From assembly GCA_000004985.1 (NCBI GenBank), contig GG739058.1: a DNA stretch of 8,656 nt; one strand, given 5' to 3'. Made by a program: the position numbers and the translations under genes. The stretch is from Naegleria gruberi (taxonomy: Eukaryota). The notes under the pieces are model-generated. The model was not told the DNA's origin. It did no database searches and saw nothing but the letters and a program-made list of their open reading frames with translations. Below, in pieces: positions 453 through 8,656 of this stretch (position 1 is the first letter of the stretch; each line of letters opens with the position of its first letter).

Positions 453-1313
453 TTATTCTAATGGTCGAATGGAAACTTCTTCAGCAATCATTTCCTTGAC
501 ACCTGTTCCATCTTTCATTTCAACCATCAAGTTACCAAACTTGGAAATACCAACAGCTTTGGCAGTATATGATGGTGATTTATCTGATGGTGATATGGTA
601 ATATCCTTTCCAATAAGAATATCATGTGATTTGTACAGAGTAATTACATCCTTTTGTGAAAATGCCAATAAGTTTTCCAAAGTATTACACAATTGAGCAA
701 GAAATTTTTCTCTATCTACACTCTTATTAGTAGCATCAAGGAATGAAATGGCAACATTTGGAAGAGCATTTTCACCTTGGGTAAGTGATGTACTCTTGAA
801 TGAACTATTGAGATTAATTCCAATTCCTGCCAATGCAAATAAAGTTTCTCCAGATTGTACACTATCAATTAACATTCCACTAATTTTAGATGGAAGTGAA
901 TCCTTTTCGTTTGGAATGACCCAAACATCATTTGGCCATTTAATTCCACAATTTTCCAATCCTTCATCTCTCAAAGTAATAGTAATTGCCAAAGGAATTG
1001 CCAAATTAAGTTTTATCAATTCCTGTGCATTATCCAATCTAACATGAAATACAATAGTAAAATACAAATTCTTTCCCTTCCCTGCACTACTCCATTCTCT
1101 ACCTCTCCTTCCCCTTCCTTTGGTTTGTTCCTCTGCCAAGATGAGTGTTCCAGTCAAACAACCCTCCTCAGCCTCTCTCCTTCCAATGTCCATTGTTGTT
1201 TCCACTTGATTCCGATACACGATCGATCGTCCTATATAACTTGTTTTTAGTAATTCTTGAAAACGTTTAATACAAAATAGAGAGTCTTTGGTATTGGCGT
1301 AGATTTGTTCCAT
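453..1313 (-). CDS. Biotin--[acetyl-CoA-carboxylase] ligase / biotin-protein ligase (BirA catalytic-domain type, 286 aa, no DNA-binding N-domain). Coordinates include the stop codon.
   Basis: The track ORF contains the diagnostic biotin-protein-ligase motif ...EQTKGRGRRGREWSSAGKGKNLYFTIV (BirA family GRGRRGRxWxSP) and the KWPNDVWV motif (BirA KWPNDLY). A C-terminal SH3-like region follows (...SHDILIGKDITI...). Start context is aaaaaaaATGG; stop TAA is at 453-455. Confidence 0.88.
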   Translation of the reverse strand: MEQIYANTKDSLFCIKRFQELLKTSYIGRSIVYRNQVETTMDIGRREAEEGCLTGTLILAEEQTKGRGRRGREWSSAGKGKNLYFTIVFHVRLDNAQELIKLNLAIPLAITITLRDEGLENCGIKWPNDVWVIPNEKDSLPSKISGMLIDSVQSGETLFALAGIGINLNSSFKSTSLTQGENALPNVAISFLDATNKSVDREKFLAQLCNTLENLLAFSQKDVITLYKSHDILIGKDITISPSDKSPSYTAKAVGISKFGNLMVEMKDGTGVKEMIAEEVSIRPLE

Positions 1314-1678
1314 TTTTTTTAAATATTCAATTTAAATATTATTTAATACCGATTGATTTAATAATATATAATAATAATAATATTTTAAATATATTGAAAA
1401 TGTAAATAATGGATTAATCATTCCAATTAATTTGGAGAGATTTTACCTGTTATTGATGATGCTGATAATGCTTGAATAGTACAATTCCGAACAGTAGAAA
1501 ATGTTCTTCTATTCATTTTCATATTATTATTTTGGAAATGATGATTTAATTCTCCTCTGAATTTTAAAGATTTGAAATAATTCATTTTTTCTTAATTTCG
1601 TCTTTAAAAAAATACAACAACTGTTTGAGGGAAACAGTTAGCGTCTTTGGCTAGAGGCCAGGTGCTAGCAGCACAGAG

Positions 1679-1811
1679 GTTGATCAACTACCAAAACTTG
1701 AGCATCGGGTTTAGAAGTCAGAGCAAATCGCGTACTCATATTAGCATGGAGGGTAATATAGTACAACTACCTTACGGTTCAAAGGTTTAAAGTAGATTTG
1801 GGTTGATCAAC
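1679..1811. repeat. Two copies of the perfect 10-bp palindrome GTTGATCAAC (1679-1688 and 1802-1811, each preceded by G), 123 bp apart. They sit inside an ORF-free, relatively GC-balanced noncoding island (about 1620-2230) that starts with the hairpin ctgttt-gaggg-aaacag (1621-1637).
   Basis: Read directly. Stops are dense in all six frames across 1560-2326 and the track shows no ORF there. Base composition differs from the flanking AT-rich spacers. Confidence 0.5.
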
Positions 1812-2326
1812 ATGGGCAAAAATAAAATAGCTAAGGTAATAGGAGAAGTGGAGAGTAATGATTTAATTATGAAAAGAATTTGAATGTATTGTAAAACGAA
1901 AACACATTGGTTCGTTGATATTGGTGAAGAATTAATTATTAGCATAAGACAGAATGTTCCATCCATTCCGCTCGGTGTCGTTGAGCAGGCACATAGAAGA
2001 CTTCCTGGTTAACTCTTATAACATCTTTATTAAGTGTATTCCTATTTATGGATAATCAAAAGGTTTAGTTTCGTTCCAAATCAAGCTTGAAGGCTAGGCG
2101 ATAACTCCAATGTCTCTACAAAAGTCCCCTTCATTTTAAATAATGATGTATCTGTGAAAGAAGCGCTGCTTCCTGCGAACTGTTTACAATTGGAGATCAT
2201 TGACTTCACGTCTTTGAAGCAGGAATCTGAATAGATTCGTATTGTAAACGTAATAAAACATTACCAGATTTTTTTTCTTAATTTCATGTAAATTTCATCA
2301 TCAACAAGAGAGAATAGTGCAAAGAT

Positions 2327-2723: not shown

Positions 2724-5700
2724 NNNNNNNNNNNNNNNNNNNNNNNNNNNNNNNNNNNNNNNNNNNNNNNNNNNNNNNNNNNNNNNNNNNNNNNNNNNNN
2801 NNNNNNNNNNNNNNNNNNNNNNNNNNNNNNNNNNNNNNNNNNNNNNNNNNNNNNNNNNNNNNNNNNNNNNNNNNNNNNNNNNNNNNNNNNNNNNNNNNNN
2901 NNNNNNNNNNNNNNNNNNNNNNNNNNNNNNNNNNNNNNNNNNNNNNNNNNNNNNNNNNNNNNNNNNNNNNNNNNNNNNNNNNNNNNNNNNNNNNNNNNNN
3001 NNNNNNNNNNNNNNNNNNNNNNNNNNNNNNNNNNNNNNNNNNNNNNNNNNNNNNNNNNNNNNNNNNNNNNNNNNNNNNNNNNNNNNNNNNNNNNNNNNNN
3101 NNNNNNNNNNNNNNNNNNNNNNNNNNNNNNNNNNNNNNNNNNNNNNNNNNNNNNNNNNNNNNNNNNNNNNNNNNNNNNNNNNNNNNNNNNNNNNNNNNNN
3201 NNNNNNNNNNNNNNNNNNNNNNNNNNNNNNNNNNNNNNNNNNNNNNNNNNNNNNNNNNNNNNNNNNNNNNNNNNNNNNNNNNNNNNNNNNNNNNNNNNNN
3301 NNNNNNNNNNNNNNNNNNNNNNNNNNNNNNNNNNNNNNNNNNNNNNNNNNNNNNNNNNNNNNNNNNNNNNNNNNNNNNNNNNNNNNNNNNNNNNNNNNNN
3401 NNNNNNNNNNNNNNNNNNNNNNNNNNNNNNNNNNNNNNNNNNNNNNNNNNNNNNNNNNNNNNNNNNNNNNNNNNNNNNNNNNNNNNNNNNNNNNNNNNNN
3501 NNNNNNNNNNNNNNNNNNNNNNNNNNNNNNNNNNNNNNNNNNNNNNNNNNNNNNNNNNNNNNNNNNNNNNNNNNNNNNNNNNNNNNNNNNNNNNNNNNNN
3601 NNNNNNNNNNNNNNNNNNNNNNNNNNNNNNNNNNNNNNNNNNNNNNNNNNNNNNNNNNNNNNNNNNNNNNNNNNNNNNNNNNNNNNNNNNNNNNNNNNNN
3701 NNNNNNNNNNNNNNNNNNNNNNNNNNNNNNNNNNNNNNNNNNNNNNNNNNNNNNNNNNNNNNNNNNNNNNNNNNNNNNNNNNNNNNNNNNNNNNNNNNNN
3801 NNNNNNNNNNNNNNNNNNNNNNNNNNNNNNNNNNNNNNNNNNNNNNNNNNNNNNNNNNNNNNNNNNNNNNNNNNNNNNNNNNNNNNNNNNNNNNNNNNNN
3901 NNNNNNNNNNNNNNNNNNNNNNNNNNNNNNNNNNNNNNNNNNNNNNNNNNNNNNNNNNNNNNNNNNNNNNNNNNNNNNNNNNNNNNNNNNNNNNNNNNNN
4001 NNNNNNNNNNNNNNNNNNNNNNNNNNNNNNNNNNNNNNNNNNNNNNNNNNNNNNNNNNNNNNNNNNNNNNNNNNNNNNNNNNNNNNNNNNNNNNNNNNNN
4101 NNNNNNNNNNNNNNNNNNNNNNNNNNNNNNNNNNNNNNNNNNNNNNNNNNNNNNNNNNNNNNNNNNNNNNNNNNNNNNNNNNNNNNNNNNNNNNNNNNNN
4201 NNNNNNNNNNNNNNNNNNNNNNNNNNNNNNNNNNNNNNNNNNNNNNNNNNNNNNNNNNNNNNNNNNNNNNNNNNNNNNNNNNNNNNNNNNNNNNNNNNNN
4301 NNNNNNNNNNNNNNNNNNNNNNNNNNNNNNNNNNNNNNNNNNNNNNNNNNNNNNNNNNNNNNNNNNNNNNNNNNNNNNNNNNNNNNNNNNNNNNNNNNNN
4401 NNNNNNNNNNNNNNNNNNNNNNNNNNNNNNNNNNNNNNNNNNNNNNNNNNNNNNNNNNNNNNNNNNNNNNNNNNNNNNNNNNNNNNNNNNNNNNNNNNNN
4501 NNNNNNNNNNNNNNNNNNNNNNNNNNNNNNNNNNNNNNNNNNNNNNNNNNNNNNNNNNNNNNNNNNNNNNNNNNNNNNNNNNNNNNNNNNNNNNNNNNNN
4601 NNNNNNNNNNNNNNNNNNNNNNNNNNNNNNNNNNNNNNNNNNNNNNNNNNNNNNNNNNNNNNNNNNNNNNNNNNNNNNNNNNNNNNNNNNNNNNNNNNNN
4701 NNNNNNNNNNNNNNNNNNNNNNNNNNNNNNNNNNNNNNNNNNNNNNNNNNNNNNNNNNNNNNNNNNNNNNNNNNNNNNNNNNNNNNNNNNNNNNNNNNNN
4801 NNNNNNNNNNNNNNNNNNNNNNNNNNNNNNNNNNNNNNNNNNNNNNNNNNNNNNNNNNNNNNNNNNNNNNNNNNNNNNNNNNNNNNNNNNNNNNNNNNNN
4901 NNNNNNNNNNNNNNNNNNNNNNNNNNNNNNNNNNNNNNNNNNNNNNNNNNNNNNNNNNNNNNNNNNNNNNNNNNNNNNNNNNNNNNNNNNNNNNNNNNNN
5001 NNNNNNNNNNNNNNNNNNNNNNNNNNNNNNNNNNNNNNNNNNNNNNNNNNNNNNNNNNNNNNNNNNNNNNNNNNNNNNNNNNNNNNNNNNNNNNNNNNNN
5101 NNNNNNNNNNNNNNNNNNNNNNNNNNNNNNNNNNNNNNNNNNNNNNNNNNNNNNNNNNNNNNNNNNNNNNNNNNNNNNNNNNNNNNNNNNNNNNNNNNNN
5201 NNNNNNNNNNNNNNNNNNNNNNNNNNNNNNNNNNNNNNNNNNNNNNNNNNNNNNNNNNNNNNNNNNNNNNNNNNNNNNNNNNNNNNNNNNNNNNNNNNNN
5301 NNNNNNNNNNNNNNNNNNNNNNNNNNNNNNNNNNNNNNNNNNNNNNNNNNNNNNNNNNNNNNNNNNNNNNNNNNNNNNNNNNNNNNNNNNNNNNNNNNNN
5401 NNNNNNNNNNNNNNNNNNNNNNNNNNNNNNNNNNNNNNNNNNNNNNNNNNNNNNNNNNNNNNNNNNNNNNNNNNNNNNNNNNNNNNNNNNNNNNNNNNNN
5501 NNNNNNNNNNNNNNNNNNNNNNNNNNNNNNNNNNNNNNNNNNNNNNNNNNNNNNNNNNNNNNNNNNNNNNNNNNNNNNNNNNNNNNNNNNNNNNNNNNNN
5601 NNNNNNNNNNNNNNNNNNNNNNNNNNNNNNNNNNNNNNNNNNNNNNNNNNNNNNNNNNNNNNNNNNNNNNNNNNNNNNNNNNNNNNNNNNNNNNNNNNNN

Positions 5701-6433
5701 NNNNNNNNNNNNNNNNNNNNNNNNNNNNNNNNNNNNNNNNNNNNNNNNNNNNNNNNNNNNNNNNNNNNNNNNNNNNNNNNNNNNNNNNNNNNNNNNNNNN
5801 NNNNNNNNNNNNNNNNNNNNNNNNNNNNNNNNNNNNNNNNNNNNNNNNNNNNNNNNNNNNNNNNNNNNNNNNNNNNNNNNNNNNNNNNNNNNNNNNNNNN
5901 NNNNNNNNNNNNNNNNNNNNNNNNNNNNNNNNNNNNNNNNNNNNNNNNNNNNNNNNNNNNNNNNNNNNNNNNNNNNNNNNNNNNNNNNNNNNNNNNNNNN
6001 NNNNNNNNNNNNNNNNNNNNNNNNNNNNNNNNNNNNNNNNNNNNNNNNNNNNNNNNNNNNNNNNNNNNNNNNNNNNNNNNNNNNNNNNNNNNNNNNNNNN
6101 NNNNNNNNNNNNNNNNNNNNNNNNNNNNNNNNNNNNNNNNNNNNNNNNNNNNNNNNNNNNNNNNNNNNNNNNNNNNNNNNNNNNNNNNNNNNNNNNNNNN
6201 NNNNNNNNNNNNNNNNNNNNNNNNNNNNNNNNNNNNNNNNNNNNNNNNNNNNNNNNNNNNNNNNNNNNNNNNNNNNNNNNNNNNNNNNNNNNNNNNNNNN
6301 NNNNNNNNNNNNNNNNNNNNNNNNNNNNNNNNNNNNNNNNNNNNNNNNNNNNNNNNNNNNNNNNNNNNNNNNNNNNNNNNNNNNNNNNNNNNNNNNNNNN
6401 NNNNNNNNNNNNNNNNNNNNNNNNNNNNNNNNN
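2724..6433. other. Assembly/scaffold gap: 3,710 consecutive N.
   Basis: Read directly. The 1,386-aa track ORF 2327..6487 is mostly X and arises from translating N. The real genes flanking the gap are the cyclase (-) and the kinase (+). Confidence 0.99.
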
Positions 6434-6471: not shown

Positions 6472-6830
6472 ATGGATAGATATACAAATTTGGTAAAGAT
6501 TGGACAAGGTGGAAGTGTGTTTAAAGTGAATGACACTAAATGTAATAATGAAGTCAAAGCAATCAAAGTGGTTAGATTTGATAACCATGAAGATTTGAAC
6601 GTGACTATGAGAGAAGGAATTCAACTTTTAAAGATGAATCACCCAAATGTTCTCAAAGTGAATGATTTCTTTATTGGAAATGGTCAAATTCTATGTATTG
6701 ATATGACTTATTATGAGATGGGTGATTTGAATAGACTCATCACTGGATCCAAATTTTGTTCAGAACTGTTAATTGCTCAAATATTATTTCAATCTTGCAG
6801 TGCCTTGGATTATATTTTCATCAACTTTGG
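6472..6830 (+). CDS. Serine/threonine protein kinase, exon 1 (subdomains I-VIa). The first in-frame ATG after the gap was used. The frame is also open back to 6434, so the true start could lie in the gap.
   Basis: The Gly-loop IGQGGSVFKV and the catalytic Lys in VKAIKV are present. The exon ends at ttt gg|GTAAGT (donor at 6831), so the codon is split in phase 2. Confidence 0.8.
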
Positions 6831-6877
6831 GTAAGTTTAGAAACATATTAAAATATGTGGATTTAACACTAAATCAG

Positions 6878-7325
6878 AGTTATTCACAGAGATATTAAAC
6901 CTTCCAATATTTTCATTCAGAAAATGAATGATTCAGCCATTGACATTATCATTGCTGATTTTGGTTTGGCAAAAAACTCAAAACAATCAACCAGTTTTTC
7001 ATTAGCTGGAACTCCATTGTATATTTCACCAGAATTGTTGTGTGGAATTTCATGTGATCATAAAACTGATATATTCAGTTTGGGAGTTACTCTATACCAG
7101 ATTCTATCTCATGATACAACAACTTCCATCAATCAAATGTACATGTTAAAGGATTCTGAAACTGTCAAACAAATATTAAAGGAGAAGATTAGTTTACAGA
7201 TCTATTCATTAGAGTTGGTGGAGTTGGTGTTTAGCATGTTGGAGAAGGATCCAGAAAGACGACCAGATGCTGGTTCTATTTTAAAACATCACTACTTTTC
7301 ACAAAGAGGGTTGAATAACAATTAA
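6878..7325 (+). CDS. Serine/threonine protein kinase, exon 2 (subdomains VIb-XI, with stop). The intron is 6831..6877 (47 nt, GTAAGT...TTAAC...CAG).
   Basis: After splicing, gg+a gives Gly, and the exon continues VIHRDIKPSNIFIQ...IADFGLAK...GTPLYISPE...DIFSLGVTLYQIL...DPERRPDAG. These are the HRDxKPxN catalytic loop, DFG, the Ser/Thr-type activation and P+1 loop, and subdomain XI. Exon 1 (359 nt) plus exon 2 (445 nt to the stop) gives 804 nt, i.e. 268 codons exactly. In the exon-2 frame, a TAA at 6870-6872 closes the frame just upstream of the acceptor, as expected for an intron. Confidence 0.82.
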
Positions 7326-7513: not shown

Positions 7514-8275
7514 TTATTTACAAATTTTGAAAAAAGGACTTCCATTAGAAACGCATCTACTGCATAGCTTTCCATAGCAATCAGCATCAGAGTTACACAT
7601 AGTTAGACCTCCACAATTACATACAGCCATGTTACAATGGTTATTATTACAATTATCGGCTGGGCACAATAGTTTAGGATTATTGTAACAGTCACAGGAC
7701 AATACACGGCAGAGACCTGAAGGCAATAATCCTTCGAAATGATTGCTTCCTAAATGGATTCCAGTTAGTGAGGGTATTTCACCATACTCTTTTGGAATTT
7801 GACCTCCAATTGCATTGAATGCCAAATTAATAATCATGACACTTTGTAAAGAATCAGCAATTCCAGTTGGCAAGACACCTGTCAAGTTATTTCTTGCCAA
7901 ATTCAAAGACAAGACATTGTATTGATTTCCGATACATTTGACACCATACCAAGAGCAAAAGTTTGTCTCTTTACCAGTATCCATAGTATTCCAACCAGTA
8001 TTATTTCTCCAATAATGACCTCCAGTTGACAAGTAAAATTTACGTAAGAAATCTCTTTCGGATAGACCTTCACTGTCACTTTCAGCAAAGAACTCGAGTT
8101 GTTCTTTGAGTCTGTCAATTCTCCTTTGAAATTTTTCCAAATCTCTCTTGTAACCAATATTACGATCACGAAGAAGAGAAGATGATAGTTTGTTACTTCT
8201 TCCTTCTGCGCTCCGAGCAGAAACTATTACCACCATCAAAAACAGAACGAAAAGAGCAAGGACAGGGGCTTTCAT
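7514..8275 (-). CDS. Secreted leucine-rich-repeat protein: signal peptide, coiled/charged linker, LRRNT_2-like cap (CSWYGVKC), three plant-specific-type 24-residue LRRs, and a cysteine-rich C-terminal tail. 253 aa; coordinates include the stop.
   Basis: N-terminus MKAPVLALFVLFLMVVIVSARSA is a hydrophobic signal peptide. NFCSWYGVKC matches the CxWxGVxC cap of extracellular plant-type LRR domains. The repeats LSLNLARNNLTGVLPTGIADSLQS, VMIINLAFNAIGGQIPKEYGEIPS and LTGIHLGSNHFEGLLPSGLC fit LxxLxLxxNxLsGxIPxxlgxlxx. The last 60 aa contain 13 Cys. There are N-glycosylation sequons (NNT, NLT). Confidence 0.75.
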   Translation of the reverse strand: MKAPVLALFVLFLMVVIVSARSAEGRSNKLSSSLLRDRNIGYKRDLEKFQRRIDRLKEQLEFFAESDSEGLSERDFLRKFYLSTGGHYWRNNTGWNTMDTGKETNFCSWYGVKCIGNQYNVLSLNLARNNLTGVLPTGIADSLQSVMIINLAFNAIGGQIPKEYGEIPSLTGIHLGSNHFEGLLPSGLCRVLSCDCYNNPKLLCPADNCNNNHCNMAVCNCGGLTMCNSDADCYGKLCSRCVSNGSPFFKICK

Positions 8276-8491: not shown

Positions 8492-8571
8492 ATGTTTTCT
8501 CCAGCTAGTGAATATGTTGCCCCTGCAGTGCAAAATTGGCAACCACTGTTGGTGGAAGAAGATGATGAAAT
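8492..8571 (+). CDS. Putative first exon of an unidentified gene (MFSPASEYVAPAVQNWQPLLVEEDDE + 2 nt), followed by an intron. The intron starts at GTAAGT 8572, has a CTAAC branch at 8611-8615, and has an acceptor at either AG 8616-8617 or, more likely, 8629-8630. The reading frame stays open to the window end under either acceptor.
   Basis: An ATG-initiated 26-codon open frame ends exactly at a consensus GTAAGT donor whose TAA would otherwise terminate it. Branch and acceptor spacing match the kinase intron in this window. There is no recognisable domain, so the product is unknown. Confidence 0.35.
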
Positions 8572-8656
8572 GTAAGTAGTAAGGGTTTTTGATAGTATTC
8601 TTATAAATGACTAACAGTCTTGTTGAACCAGTTAGAAAACCAAACCTTTGTTCTGT

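What the first reader, a model, noticed from the sequence alone, without database searches (positions are those of the whole stretch)
7514..8275. A plant-type (PGIP-like) secreted LRR protein with a cysteine-rich tail in a genome whose introns and spacing look fungal or protist-like
The domain grammar is: signal peptide, then CxWxGVxC cap, then 24-residue LxxLxLxxNxLsGxIP repeats. That is the extracellular 'plant-specific LRR' architecture of plant receptor-like proteins and polygalacturonase-inhibiting proteins. The genomic context does not look like a plant: 47-59-nt introns, CTAAC-type branch sites about 12-15 nt from the AG, and 200-bp intergenic spacers. The protein has only three repeats, then a 60-aa module with 13 Cys (CDCYNNPKLLCPADNCNNNHCNMAVCNCGGLTMCNSDADCYGKLCSRCVSNGSPFFKICK). 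I cannot assign that module to a known fold. It has a hevein-like LCPxxxC start but lacks the aromatic chitin-binding residues. A small secreted LRR plus Cys-knot protein could be an effector or host mimic, a horizontally acquired gene, or a lineage-specific surface/adhesion protein.
Basis: partly seen in the sequence, partly recalled or inferred. Interest (0 to 1): 0.5.

Follow-up and report, generated by a model that had tools for sequence, protein, structure and literature searches.

The report
Small secreted LRR protein of Naegleria
This is a real gene of the free-living amoeba Naegleria gruberi for a small secreted leucine-rich-repeat protein whose repeat module is common in bacteria, protists and plants, so it is not a plant import; only its cysteine-rich tail is unexplained.

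Summary
The ORF is real: 7514-8275, minus strand, 253 aa, no intron. It is identical to Naegleria gruberi NAEGRDRAFT_76635 (XP_002668455.1). The quoted 60-aa string has 12 Cys, not 13.

The PS-LRR call is supported by sequence and by fold. The best solved matches are plant receptor ectodomains (SERK, BIR, TMK3, GSO1). PGIP is not the best match.

Plant affinity is not supported. The only full-length relative is an N. lovaniensis orthologue (49% identity). The cap plus three LRRs is a very widespread module: 59,672 cluster representatives match. The best-scoring matches are tandem units in giant proteins from bacterial genomes and metagenomes, at 60-75 bits per unit against about 40 for plant N-termini. 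The cap carries a Y..T.G..W element found in those proteins and in Giardia cyst-wall proteins, but in none of 9 named plant hits. Pfam LRRNT_2 stays below threshold.

The closest characterised architecture is Giardia CWP1-3 (leader, same cap, LRRs, Cys-rich C-terminus). Specific orthology was tested and not found.

The tail begins with an LRR C-cap-like NNPKLLCP motif. Its last roughly 45 aa have no detectable relatives. This is a new member of a known kind, of low to moderate interest.

The parts
7514..8275 (-). Complete intronless CDS of NAEGRDRAFT_76635 (253 aa plus TAA stop at 7514-7516)
   Evidence: ORF list. It is 100% identical to XP_002668455.1. The orthologue ends at the same position. 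The chance of such an ORF is about 5e-9.
8204..8275 (-). Signal peptide, aa 1-24 (MKAPVLALFVLFLMVVIVSARSAE); the cleavage site is approximate
   Evidence: Hydropathy is 2.49 over aa 1-19 and there is no later hydrophobic segment. The orthologue also has a hydrophobic leader, but only 29% identity here. SignalP was not available.
8060..8203 (-). Poorly conserved charged helical linker, aa 25-72
   Evidence: AF2 predicts helix 32-65. Identity to the orthologue is 25%, with a 20-residue deletion in the orthologue.
7922..8059 (-). LRR N-terminal cap, aa 73-118: FLRKFYLSTGGHYWRNNTGW...CSWYGVKC, with the Cys pair C107/C114
   Evidence: Identity to the orthologue is 67% and pLDDT is 83-97. The segment aligns with the caps of units in proteins from bacterial genomes and metagenomes and with the Giardia CWP1 cap. 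Pfam LRRNT_2 gives only 17.6 bits, below its gathering score.
7697..7921 (-). Three 24-residue plant-specific-class LRRs, aa 119-193
   Evidence: Repeat parse. Pfam LRR_1 scores 27.3 bits, above its cut-off; LRR_8 scores 23.4 bits, below its cut-off of 27. PDB profile hits are plant LRR ectodomains. pLDDT is 89-98, with parallel strands at 120-125, 148-150 and 172-174.
7637..7696 (-). C-cap-like segment, aa 194-213 (CDCYNNPKLLCPADNCNNNH); with C189 it holds the first five tail Cys
   Evidence: Identity to the orthologue is 75%. HMMER aligns NNPKLLCP with NCNPDLTCP of Giardia CWP1. It aligns weakly with one of four plant C-caps tested. pLDDT is 68-72.
7517..7636 (-). Terminal 8-Cys module, aa 214-253 (C-x4-C-x-C-x5-C-x5-C-x4-C-x2-C-x10-C); no family assigned
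   Evidence: Identity to the orthologue is 62.5% and all 8 Cys are kept. There is no Pfam hit at E<=10, no PDB sequence hit at E<=10, and no metagenome relative. pLDDT is 47-76, with a predicted hairpin at 241-243/250-252.

Best explanation
The gene encodes a small, soluble, secreted, disulfide-rich LRR protein restricted, as far as can be seen, to the genus Naegleria.

After the signal peptide and a variable helical linker it carries one copy of an ancient, very widespread extracellular module. That module is an N-terminal cap (Y..T.G..W ... CxWxGVxC) followed by three 24-residue plant-specific-class LRRs. It is closed by a C-cap-like NNPKLLCP segment and a genus-specific 8-Cys terminal module.

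Shown: the gene is real, conserved and under constraint; the module's class and fold; its distribution; and the absence of a membrane anchor or kinase.

Inferred: the short curved beta-sheet (cap strand plus three LRR strands) is the ligand-binding face, as in other extracellular LRR proteins. The Cys-rich end stabilises the solenoid. It probably also cross-links or docks the protein in an extracellular matrix.

The protein is not a plant acquisition and not a host mimic. The best functional analogy is the Giardia cyst-wall proteins, which share the whole architecture. A role in the Naegleria cyst wall or cell coat is therefore my preferred specific guess, at about 25%, and it is untested.
For: Identity and reality of the gene:
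- The orthologue in N. lovaniensis is 49% identical over 99% of the length. All 14 structural Cys and the stop position are conserved.
- Region-wise identity is cap 67%, LRRs 55% and tail 66%, against linker 25% and leader 29%.

Class and fold:
- PS-LRR class by sequence.
- The AF2 model has pLDDT above 90 over aa 71-190.
- Foldseek is led by SERK, BIR and PEPR1 ectodomains.

Distribution of the module:
- 59,672 cluster representatives match at E<=1e-3. The top 149, after the query itself, are giant proteins with 10-31 tandem units matching profile positions of about 80-199.
- Those that carry a name are Aquimarina or IMG LRR proteins.
- Per-unit scores are 60-75 bits, against 40-42 bits for FLS2 and GSO1 N-termini.
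- The Y..T.G..W motif is in 139 of 149 and 92 of 118 hits, but in 0 of 9 named plant hits.

Giardia analogy:
- CWP1-3 share the leader, the same cap, LRRs and a Cys-rich C-terminus.
- CWP1 matches the Naegleria profile at 39.6 bits over cap plus LRRs. Its NCNPDLTCP aligns with NNPKLLCP.

No anchor or kinase:
- There is no transmembrane segment.
- The adjacent kinase gene is on the opposite strand and convergent.
Against: - No ligand, expression or localisation data exist. No paper mentions the locus tag.
- Signal-peptide cleavage was not tested with a dedicated predictor. The 18-residue hydrophobic stretch could in principle be a signal anchor.
- The tail is modelled at low confidence: pLDDT 47-59 over aa 211-230. 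Its role is pure inference.
- The Giardia analogy rests on architecture only. The tails are not significantly similar.
- A Giardia CWP profile scores units from bacterial and metagenome proteins at 110-130 bits but Naegleria at only 36-46 bits.
- No N. fowleri or other heterolobosean relative was seen. The tools cannot search eukaryotic genomes directly.
Confidence: 0.7

Rival explanations
1. The cap+LRR module entered the Naegleria lineage from bacteria, by ancient horizontal transfer from prey. It then gained a eukaryotic leader and the Cys-rich tail.
For: The highest per-unit scores are to units of giant proteins from bacterial genomes and metagenomes: 60-75 bits against about 40 bits for plant and Giardia proteins. 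BLASTP alignments to these hits span the whole cap+LRR unit (45-50% of the query), whereas named plant hits mostly span only the LRRs. N. gruberi eats bacteria (general knowledge).
Against: Identity to the best units is only 30-39%. The libraries are dominated by prokaryotic and metagenomic sequence, so 'best hit is bacterial' is expected anyway. The same cap type occurs in Giardia CWPs, so it is also eukaryotic. No phylogeny was possible with these tools.
Confidence: 0.15
2. One reading: a plant-derived or plant-mimicking secreted protein, either horizontal transfer from plants or an effector/host mimic of the PGIP type.
For: The best solved-structure matches are all plant LRR ectodomains. 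UniRef names the N. lovaniensis orthologue 'LRR-containing N-terminal plant-type domain-containing protein'.
Against: The PDB holds mostly plant examples of this LRR class, so the ranking reflects what has been crystallised. The cap carries the Y..T.G..W element absent from all 9 named plant hits. Pfam LRRNT_2 is below threshold. Most named plant hits cover only 24-34% of the query. PGIP ranks 45 and 49 in Foldseek. The organism is a free-living amoeba with no plant host (and general knowledge).
Confidence: 0.03
3. A true orthologue, not merely an analogue, of the Giardia cyst-wall proteins, inherited from a common ancestor and serving as a structural lectin of the cyst wall.
For: The architecture and size are the same: leader, Y..T.G..W/CxWxGVxC cap, 24-residue LRRs, NP.L.CP, and a Cys-rich end, at 241-253 aa. 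Both organisms encyst (general knowledge).
Against: The reciprocal test fails. The CWP profile ranks Naegleria below more than 1,400 unit matches in bacterial and metagenome proteins: 36-46 bits against 110-130 bits. Tail-to-CRR similarity is not above shuffles for CWP1 and CWP2 (70/500 and 181/500), and is marginal for CWP3 (4/500).
Confidence: 0.08
4. A spurious ORF or mis-annotated fragment of a larger gene.
For: The gene sits on a short 8.7-kb scaffold with a 3.7-kb N gap. It is annotated only as a 'predicted protein'.
Against: The chance of the ORF is about 5e-9. The orthologue has the same start region, the same stop and all Cys conserved. The fold is confidently predicted. Flanking genes are on the other strand.
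Confidence: 0.02

Closest known systems
Giardia lamblia cyst wall proteins CWP1-3
   Same: They share an N-terminal hydrophobic leader and a cap with the same two elements (IYDATDGANW...CTWTGVTC against FYLSTGGHYW...CSWYGVKC). [quoted passage not shown] The cap+LRR part is detectably homologous, at 39.6 bits.
   Different: Giardia has more repeats, described as about five in the literature (from memory; not counted here). The Cys-rich regions are not significantly similar. There is no reciprocal best relationship. CWP function (LRR lectin for the GalNAc polymer, PMC2924369) is shown only for Giardia.
Short plant LRR ectodomains (SERK1/BAK1, BIR2/3, SRF6, SOBIR1) and other plant LRR-RLK/RLP ectodomains, including PGIP
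   Different: The nine named plant hits examined lack the Y..T.G..W element. Pfam LRRNT_2 is not reached by the Naegleria cap. Plant receptors continue into a transmembrane helix and kinase; this protein has neither. PGIP has far more repeats (313 aa). None has the 8-Cys terminal module.
Giant multi-unit LRR proteins from bacterial genomes and metagenomes (e.g. Aquimarina WP_322289694.1, WP_298320825.1); solved Bacteroides LRR protein 4eco
   Same: They contain the same unit of about 115 aa (ALxxLYNATGGxxWTNNTNW...CxWYGVxC plus three or so PS-type LRRs). They give the highest per-unit scores, 60-75 bits and 30-39% identity. Some units are followed by a Cys-rich linker at the same position as the Naegleria tail.
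   Different: They hold 10-31 tandem units in proteins of 1,100-7,800 aa, against a single unit here. Their Cys-rich linkers show no significant similarity to the Naegleria tail: -7.6 bits, and no hit with the tail profile.

Membership tests
Plant-specific (PS) class of leucine-rich repeats | Repeats of 23-25 residues with consensus LxxLxLxxNxL(t/s)GxIPxxLGxLxx (as given in PMC2946307) | tested here: met
   There are three 24-residue repeats carrying NNLTGVLP, NAIGGQIP and NHFEGLLP. A profile search of PDB sequences is led by PS-class ectodomains.
Plant-specific (PS) class of leucine-rich repeats | Fold matches PS-class solenoids better than other LRR classes | tested here: met
Pfam LRRNT_2 (PF08263, plant-type LRR N-terminal domain) | Score at or above the curated gathering cut-off (20.7 bits) | tested here: not met
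   There is no hit on the full protein at E<=1. The isolated cap scores 17.6 bits, matching only the CxWxGVxC end. The orthologue has no hit at E<=10, although UniRef's automatic name implies an InterPro match elsewhere.
Polygalacturonase-inhibiting proteins (PGIP) | About ten PS-LRRs forming the PG-binding surface, with closest similarity to PGIPs | tested here: not met
LRR receptor-like kinases | Transmembrane helix and cytoplasmic kinase domain on the same polypeptide | tested here: not met
   No hydrophobic segment follows the leader, and the protein ends KICK*. The adjacent Pkinase gene (6472-7325) is on the opposite strand and convergent.
Giardia cyst wall proteins (CWP1-3) | [quoted passage not shown] | tested here: met
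   The architectures were compared directly using the CWP sequences of Fig S1, PMC2851657. The description of CWPs is in PMC2924369.
Giardia cyst wall proteins (CWP1-3) | Specific sequence relationship (reciprocal closest relatives; homologous Cys-rich region) | tested here: not met
   The CWP profile scores Naegleria at 36-46 bits, ranked below more than 1,400 unit matches in bacterial and metagenome proteins at up to 130 bits. The tail profile against the CWP Cys-rich region is not above shuffles for CWP1 and CWP2, and marginal for CWP3.
Giardia cyst wall proteins (CWP1-3) | Encystation-induced expression and location in the cyst wall | not testable with these tools
   No expression or localisation data are reachable, and no paper mentions the locus tag.
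Hevein / chitin-binding type 1 (CBM18) | Profile match, and an 8-Cys pattern with a CC doublet and aromatic sugar-binding residues | tested here: not met
   There is no Pfam hit of any kind on the tail at E<=10. The sequence has no CC doublet. The LCPxxxC stretch aligns instead with the post-LRR cap of Giardia CWP1.
Knottin (inhibitor cystine knot) | Six Cys with I-IV, II-V, III-VI connectivity and a knotted topology | not testable with these tools
   The spacing C221-x5-C-x5-C-x4-C-x2-C-x10-C252 lies within the usual knottin ranges (my own knowledge), and a terminal hairpin is predicted. However, pLDDT is 47-76, the model coordinates cannot be inspected, and the tail cannot be searched on its own.

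The most novel reading that the evidence does not exclude
The terminal 8-Cys (or the whole 12-Cys) tail is a previously undescribed disulfide-rich domain confined to Naegleria. The protein would then be a heterolobosean counterpart of the Giardia cyst-wall proteins. That would make 'one cap+LRR module plus a Cys-rich cross-linking end' a recurrent design for protist cyst-wall or cell-coat lectins, and would give the first molecular handle on the Naegleria cyst wall.
Probability: 0.2. Interest if true: 0.45.

Novelty: new member of a known kind. Interest (0 to 1): 0.25.

Why it matters
This is mainly a corrective result. A 'plant-specific' LRR with a CxWxGVxC cap in a protist is not evidence of plant affinity or horizontal transfer. 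The cap+LRR unit is among the commonest extracellular modules in bacterial and metagenome sequence, and it also builds the Giardia cyst wall.

The modest positive value has two parts. First, this uncharacterised Naegleria protein has the same overall design as the Giardia cyst-wall proteins. That gives a cheap, testable candidate for a Naegleria cyst-wall or surface component; the genus includes the pathogen N. fowleri, though no orthologue was seen there. Second, the conserved 8-Cys end has no detectable relatives and may be a new small disulfide-rich domain.

Tried and rejected
- AF2 with the two-sequence alignment gave pLDDT 40 and was unusable. It was replaced by a 40-row alignment that included units from the giant proteins.
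- Tail-only searches all came back empty: Pfam at E<=10, PDB sequences at E<=10, the word-index protein search, which found no candidates, and two metagenome scans with back-translated tail and cap motifs.
- HMMER extended some alignments of bacterial or metagenome units through the Naegleria tail (P0058, P0094, P0141). A tail-only profile did not find these segments. A profile of their Cys-rich linkers scored the Naegleria tail at -7.6 bits. Homology is rejected as unsupported.
- Homology of the tail to the Giardia CWP Cys-rich region is not above composition-preserving shuffles for CWP1 and CWP2.
- Equivalence of NNPKLLCPADNC to the plant N..LCG...C C-cap: only one of four plant C-termini aligned through it, at low posterior. 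This is kept only as a weak inference.
- Synteny with the N. lovaniensis locus: the neighbours differ.
- The afdb50 fold library was unavailable.
- A literature search for the locus tag and for Naegleria CWP homologues found nothing.
- The full-length search of cluster representatives is dominated by multi-unit giants. Small single-unit relatives scoring below about 288 bits could not be listed.

Full report
**What is there**

The window is an entire 8,656-nt scaffold of Naegleria gruberi (Heterolobosea, Discoba). The 253-aa product of the minus-strand ORF 7514-8275 is 100% identical to 'predicted protein' XP_002668455.1 / NAEGRDRAFT_76635 / UniProt D2W5E4, recorded on a contig of exactly this length. 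Given the window's base composition (33% G+C, stop probability 0.073 per codon), a 253-codon open frame has a chance probability of about 5e-9.

Read directly:
- The convergent kinase gene (6472-7325, +) has a 47-nt intron (6831-6877) whose removal restores HRDIKPSN.
- The divergent gene starting at 8492 has an intron of about 60 nt with CTAAC.
- The spacers are 188 and 216 bp.

**Anatomy**

| Residues | Feature | Evidence |
|---|---|---|
| 1-24 | Strongly hydrophobic leader; nothing hydrophobic afterwards, so no membrane anchor or GPI signal | |
| 25-72 | Charged helix; 25% identical to the orthologue and partly deleted there | |
| 73-118 | LRR N-cap FLRKFYLSTGGHYWRNNTGW...CSWYGVKC | |
| 119-193 | Three 24-residue repeats of the LxxLxLxxNxLtGxIP type | |
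| 189-253 | Tail with 13 Cys | |

C196 is not conserved in the orthologue. So 12 tail Cys plus the two cap Cys are conserved.

Pfam gives LRR_1 at 27.3 bits, above its cut-off, and LRR_8 at 23.4 bits, below its cut-off. LRRNT_2 is not reported on the whole protein. On the isolated cap it reaches only 17.6 bits against a cut-off of 20.7.

**Relatives**

The only protein covering the whole length is N. lovaniensis XP_044542207.1: 240 aa, 49% identity, 99% coverage. Constraint is uneven: cap 67%, LRRs 55% and tail 66% identity, against linker 25% and leader 29%. The tail is therefore as constrained as the cap. The two loci are not obviously syntenic.

A profile of the two sequences, searched against 1.84 billion cluster representatives, gave 59,672 hits at E<=1e-3. 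After the query itself, the top 149 are all giant proteins of 1,100-7,800 aa. Each contains 10-31 stretches matching profile positions of about 80-199. In other words, the cap plus three LRRs is a unit of about 115 aa that these proteins repeat in tandem. The few that carry names are Aquimarina (Bacteroidota) proteins and IMG 'LRR protein' or 'RHS repeat-associated protein' entries.

Single units score 60-75 bits and are 30-39% identical to the Naegleria protein. Their caps read ALxxLYNATGGxxWTNNTNW...CxWYGVxC. For comparison, the N-termini of plant FLS2 and GSO1 score 40-42 bits over a shorter stretch that begins at the CxWxGVxC element.

A second search, with a 40-row alignment, gave 1,300 hits. 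In that search:
- Metagenomic and bacterial proteins align over 45-50% of the query, which is the whole unit.
- Most named plant proteins align over 24-34%, which is the LRRs only.
- Nothing but the orthologue covers the tail.

The [LF]Y..T.G..W element is present in 139 of 149 and 92 of 118 hits of the two searches, and in none of the 9 named plant hits. Most top hits are unnamed, so 'bacterial' is established only for the named ones.

**Fold**

With the 40-row alignment, AF2 gave mean pLDDT 80.6. Confidence is above 90 over aa 71-190, 68-72 over 191-210, 47-59 over 211-230 and 68-76 at the end. The model has a cap strand and three LRR strands.

'PGIP-like' is not the best description. The plant-only look of the PDB list reflects which proteins of this class have been crystallised.

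**The tail**

It has no Pfam hit at E<=10, no PDB sequence hit at E<=10 and no metagenome relatives.

Its first part, YNNPKLLCPADNC, sits directly after the last repeat. HMMER aligns it with NCNPDLTCP of Giardia CWP1, and weakly with one of four plant N..LCG...C caps.

The last 40 residues hold 8 conserved Cys in the pattern C-x4-C-x-C-x5-C-x5-C-x4-C-x2-C-x10-C. The last six have spacings compatible with a knottin, and a terminal hairpin is predicted. This rests on my own knowledge plus a low-confidence model and could not be tested.

Some bacterial or metagenome units are followed by Cys-rich linkers at the same position. Neither direction of profile search supports homology.

**Closest characterised architecture**

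[quoted passage not shown] Their sequences (Fig S1 of PMC2851657; machine-read, one or two residues lost) show a leader, the same two-part cap (IYDATDGANWKTNNW...CTWTGVTC), 24-residue LRRs, NCNPDLTCP and a Cys-rich end, in 241-247 aa. CWP1 matches the Naegleria profile at 39.6 bits over cap plus LRRs.

Specific orthology fails, however:
- The tail profile does not score the CWP Cys-rich regions above shuffles for CWP1 and CWP2, and only marginally for CWP3.
- A CWP profile scores units from bacterial and metagenome proteins at 110-130 bits but the Naegleria proteins at only 36-46 bits.

The resemblance is therefore a shared module and a shared design, not demonstrated common descent of the whole protein.

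**Interpretation**

Shown:
- The gene is real and conserved.
- It encodes a leader-bearing protein with no membrane anchor.
- That protein is built from one widespread cap+PS-LRR module plus a genus-specific Cys-rich end.

Inferred:
- It is secreted.
- It binds a ligand on the small concave sheet.
- It uses the disulfide-rich end for stability and perhaps for matrix cross-linking.

By analogy with Giardia, and because Naegleria encysts, my preferred specific role is a cyst-wall or cell-coat component, at about 25%.

A plant origin or host mimicry is very unlikely. A bacterial origin of the module is possible but cannot be separated from database composition without a phylogeny.

**Verdict**

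This is a new member of a known kind. The plant-like grammar is not surprising in a protist. A 2026 survey also reports LRR-RLK-like sequences across eukaryotic supergroups (PMC13091385). The orphan tail and the CWP-like design give it low to moderate interest.

Noticed in passing
window 2724-6433: A run of about 3,710 N (an assembly gap) takes up 43% of the scaffold. It interrupts a minus-strand gene whose 3' part (2327-2722) encodes an adenylate/guanylate cyclase catalytic domain (Pfam Guanylate_cyc, 63.5 bits).
   Followed up: partly
window 453-1313 (-): A 286-aa ORF with a biotin/lipoate protein ligase domain (BPL_LplA_LipB, 45.9 bits) and a weak BPL_C match. It is probably the biotin-protein ligase gene.
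   Followed up: partly
window 6472-7325 (+): A two-exon protein kinase gene (Pkinase, 44.7 and 72.5 bits on the two exons) with a 47-nt intron at 6831-6877. It is convergent with the LRR gene, so the two do not form a receptor kinase.
   Followed up: partly
window 1590-2320: A stretch with coding-like G+C (31-40%) but no long ORF on either strand. Rfam found nothing at E<=0.1 over 1300-2720. It could be a multi-exon gene or an undescribed RNA.
   Followed up: partly
Giardia CWP1-3 (PMC2851657 Fig S1) against proteins P0074, P0145, P0079 and others: A profile of the Giardia cyst-wall proteins scores single units of the giant proteins from bacterial genomes and metagenomes at 110-130 bits over nearly the whole cap+LRR region. 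That is far more than it scores the Naegleria protein (36-46 bits). This hints at an unusually close link between Giardia CWPs and that module.
   Followed up: no
proteins P0058 (740-814, 1162-1236, 1373-1446) and P0094 (215-284): In some giant LRR proteins each cap+LRR unit is followed by a Cys-rich linker of about 70 aa ending in IDCGGPxCxxC. It occupies the same position as the Naegleria tail but shows no significant similarity to it.
   Followed up: partly
window 8492-8656 (+): The start of another gene (MFSPASEYVAPAVQNWQPLLVEEDDEM...) with an intron of about 60 nt from 8572 that carries a CTAAC. It is cut off by the end of the scaffold and was not identified.
   Followed up: no
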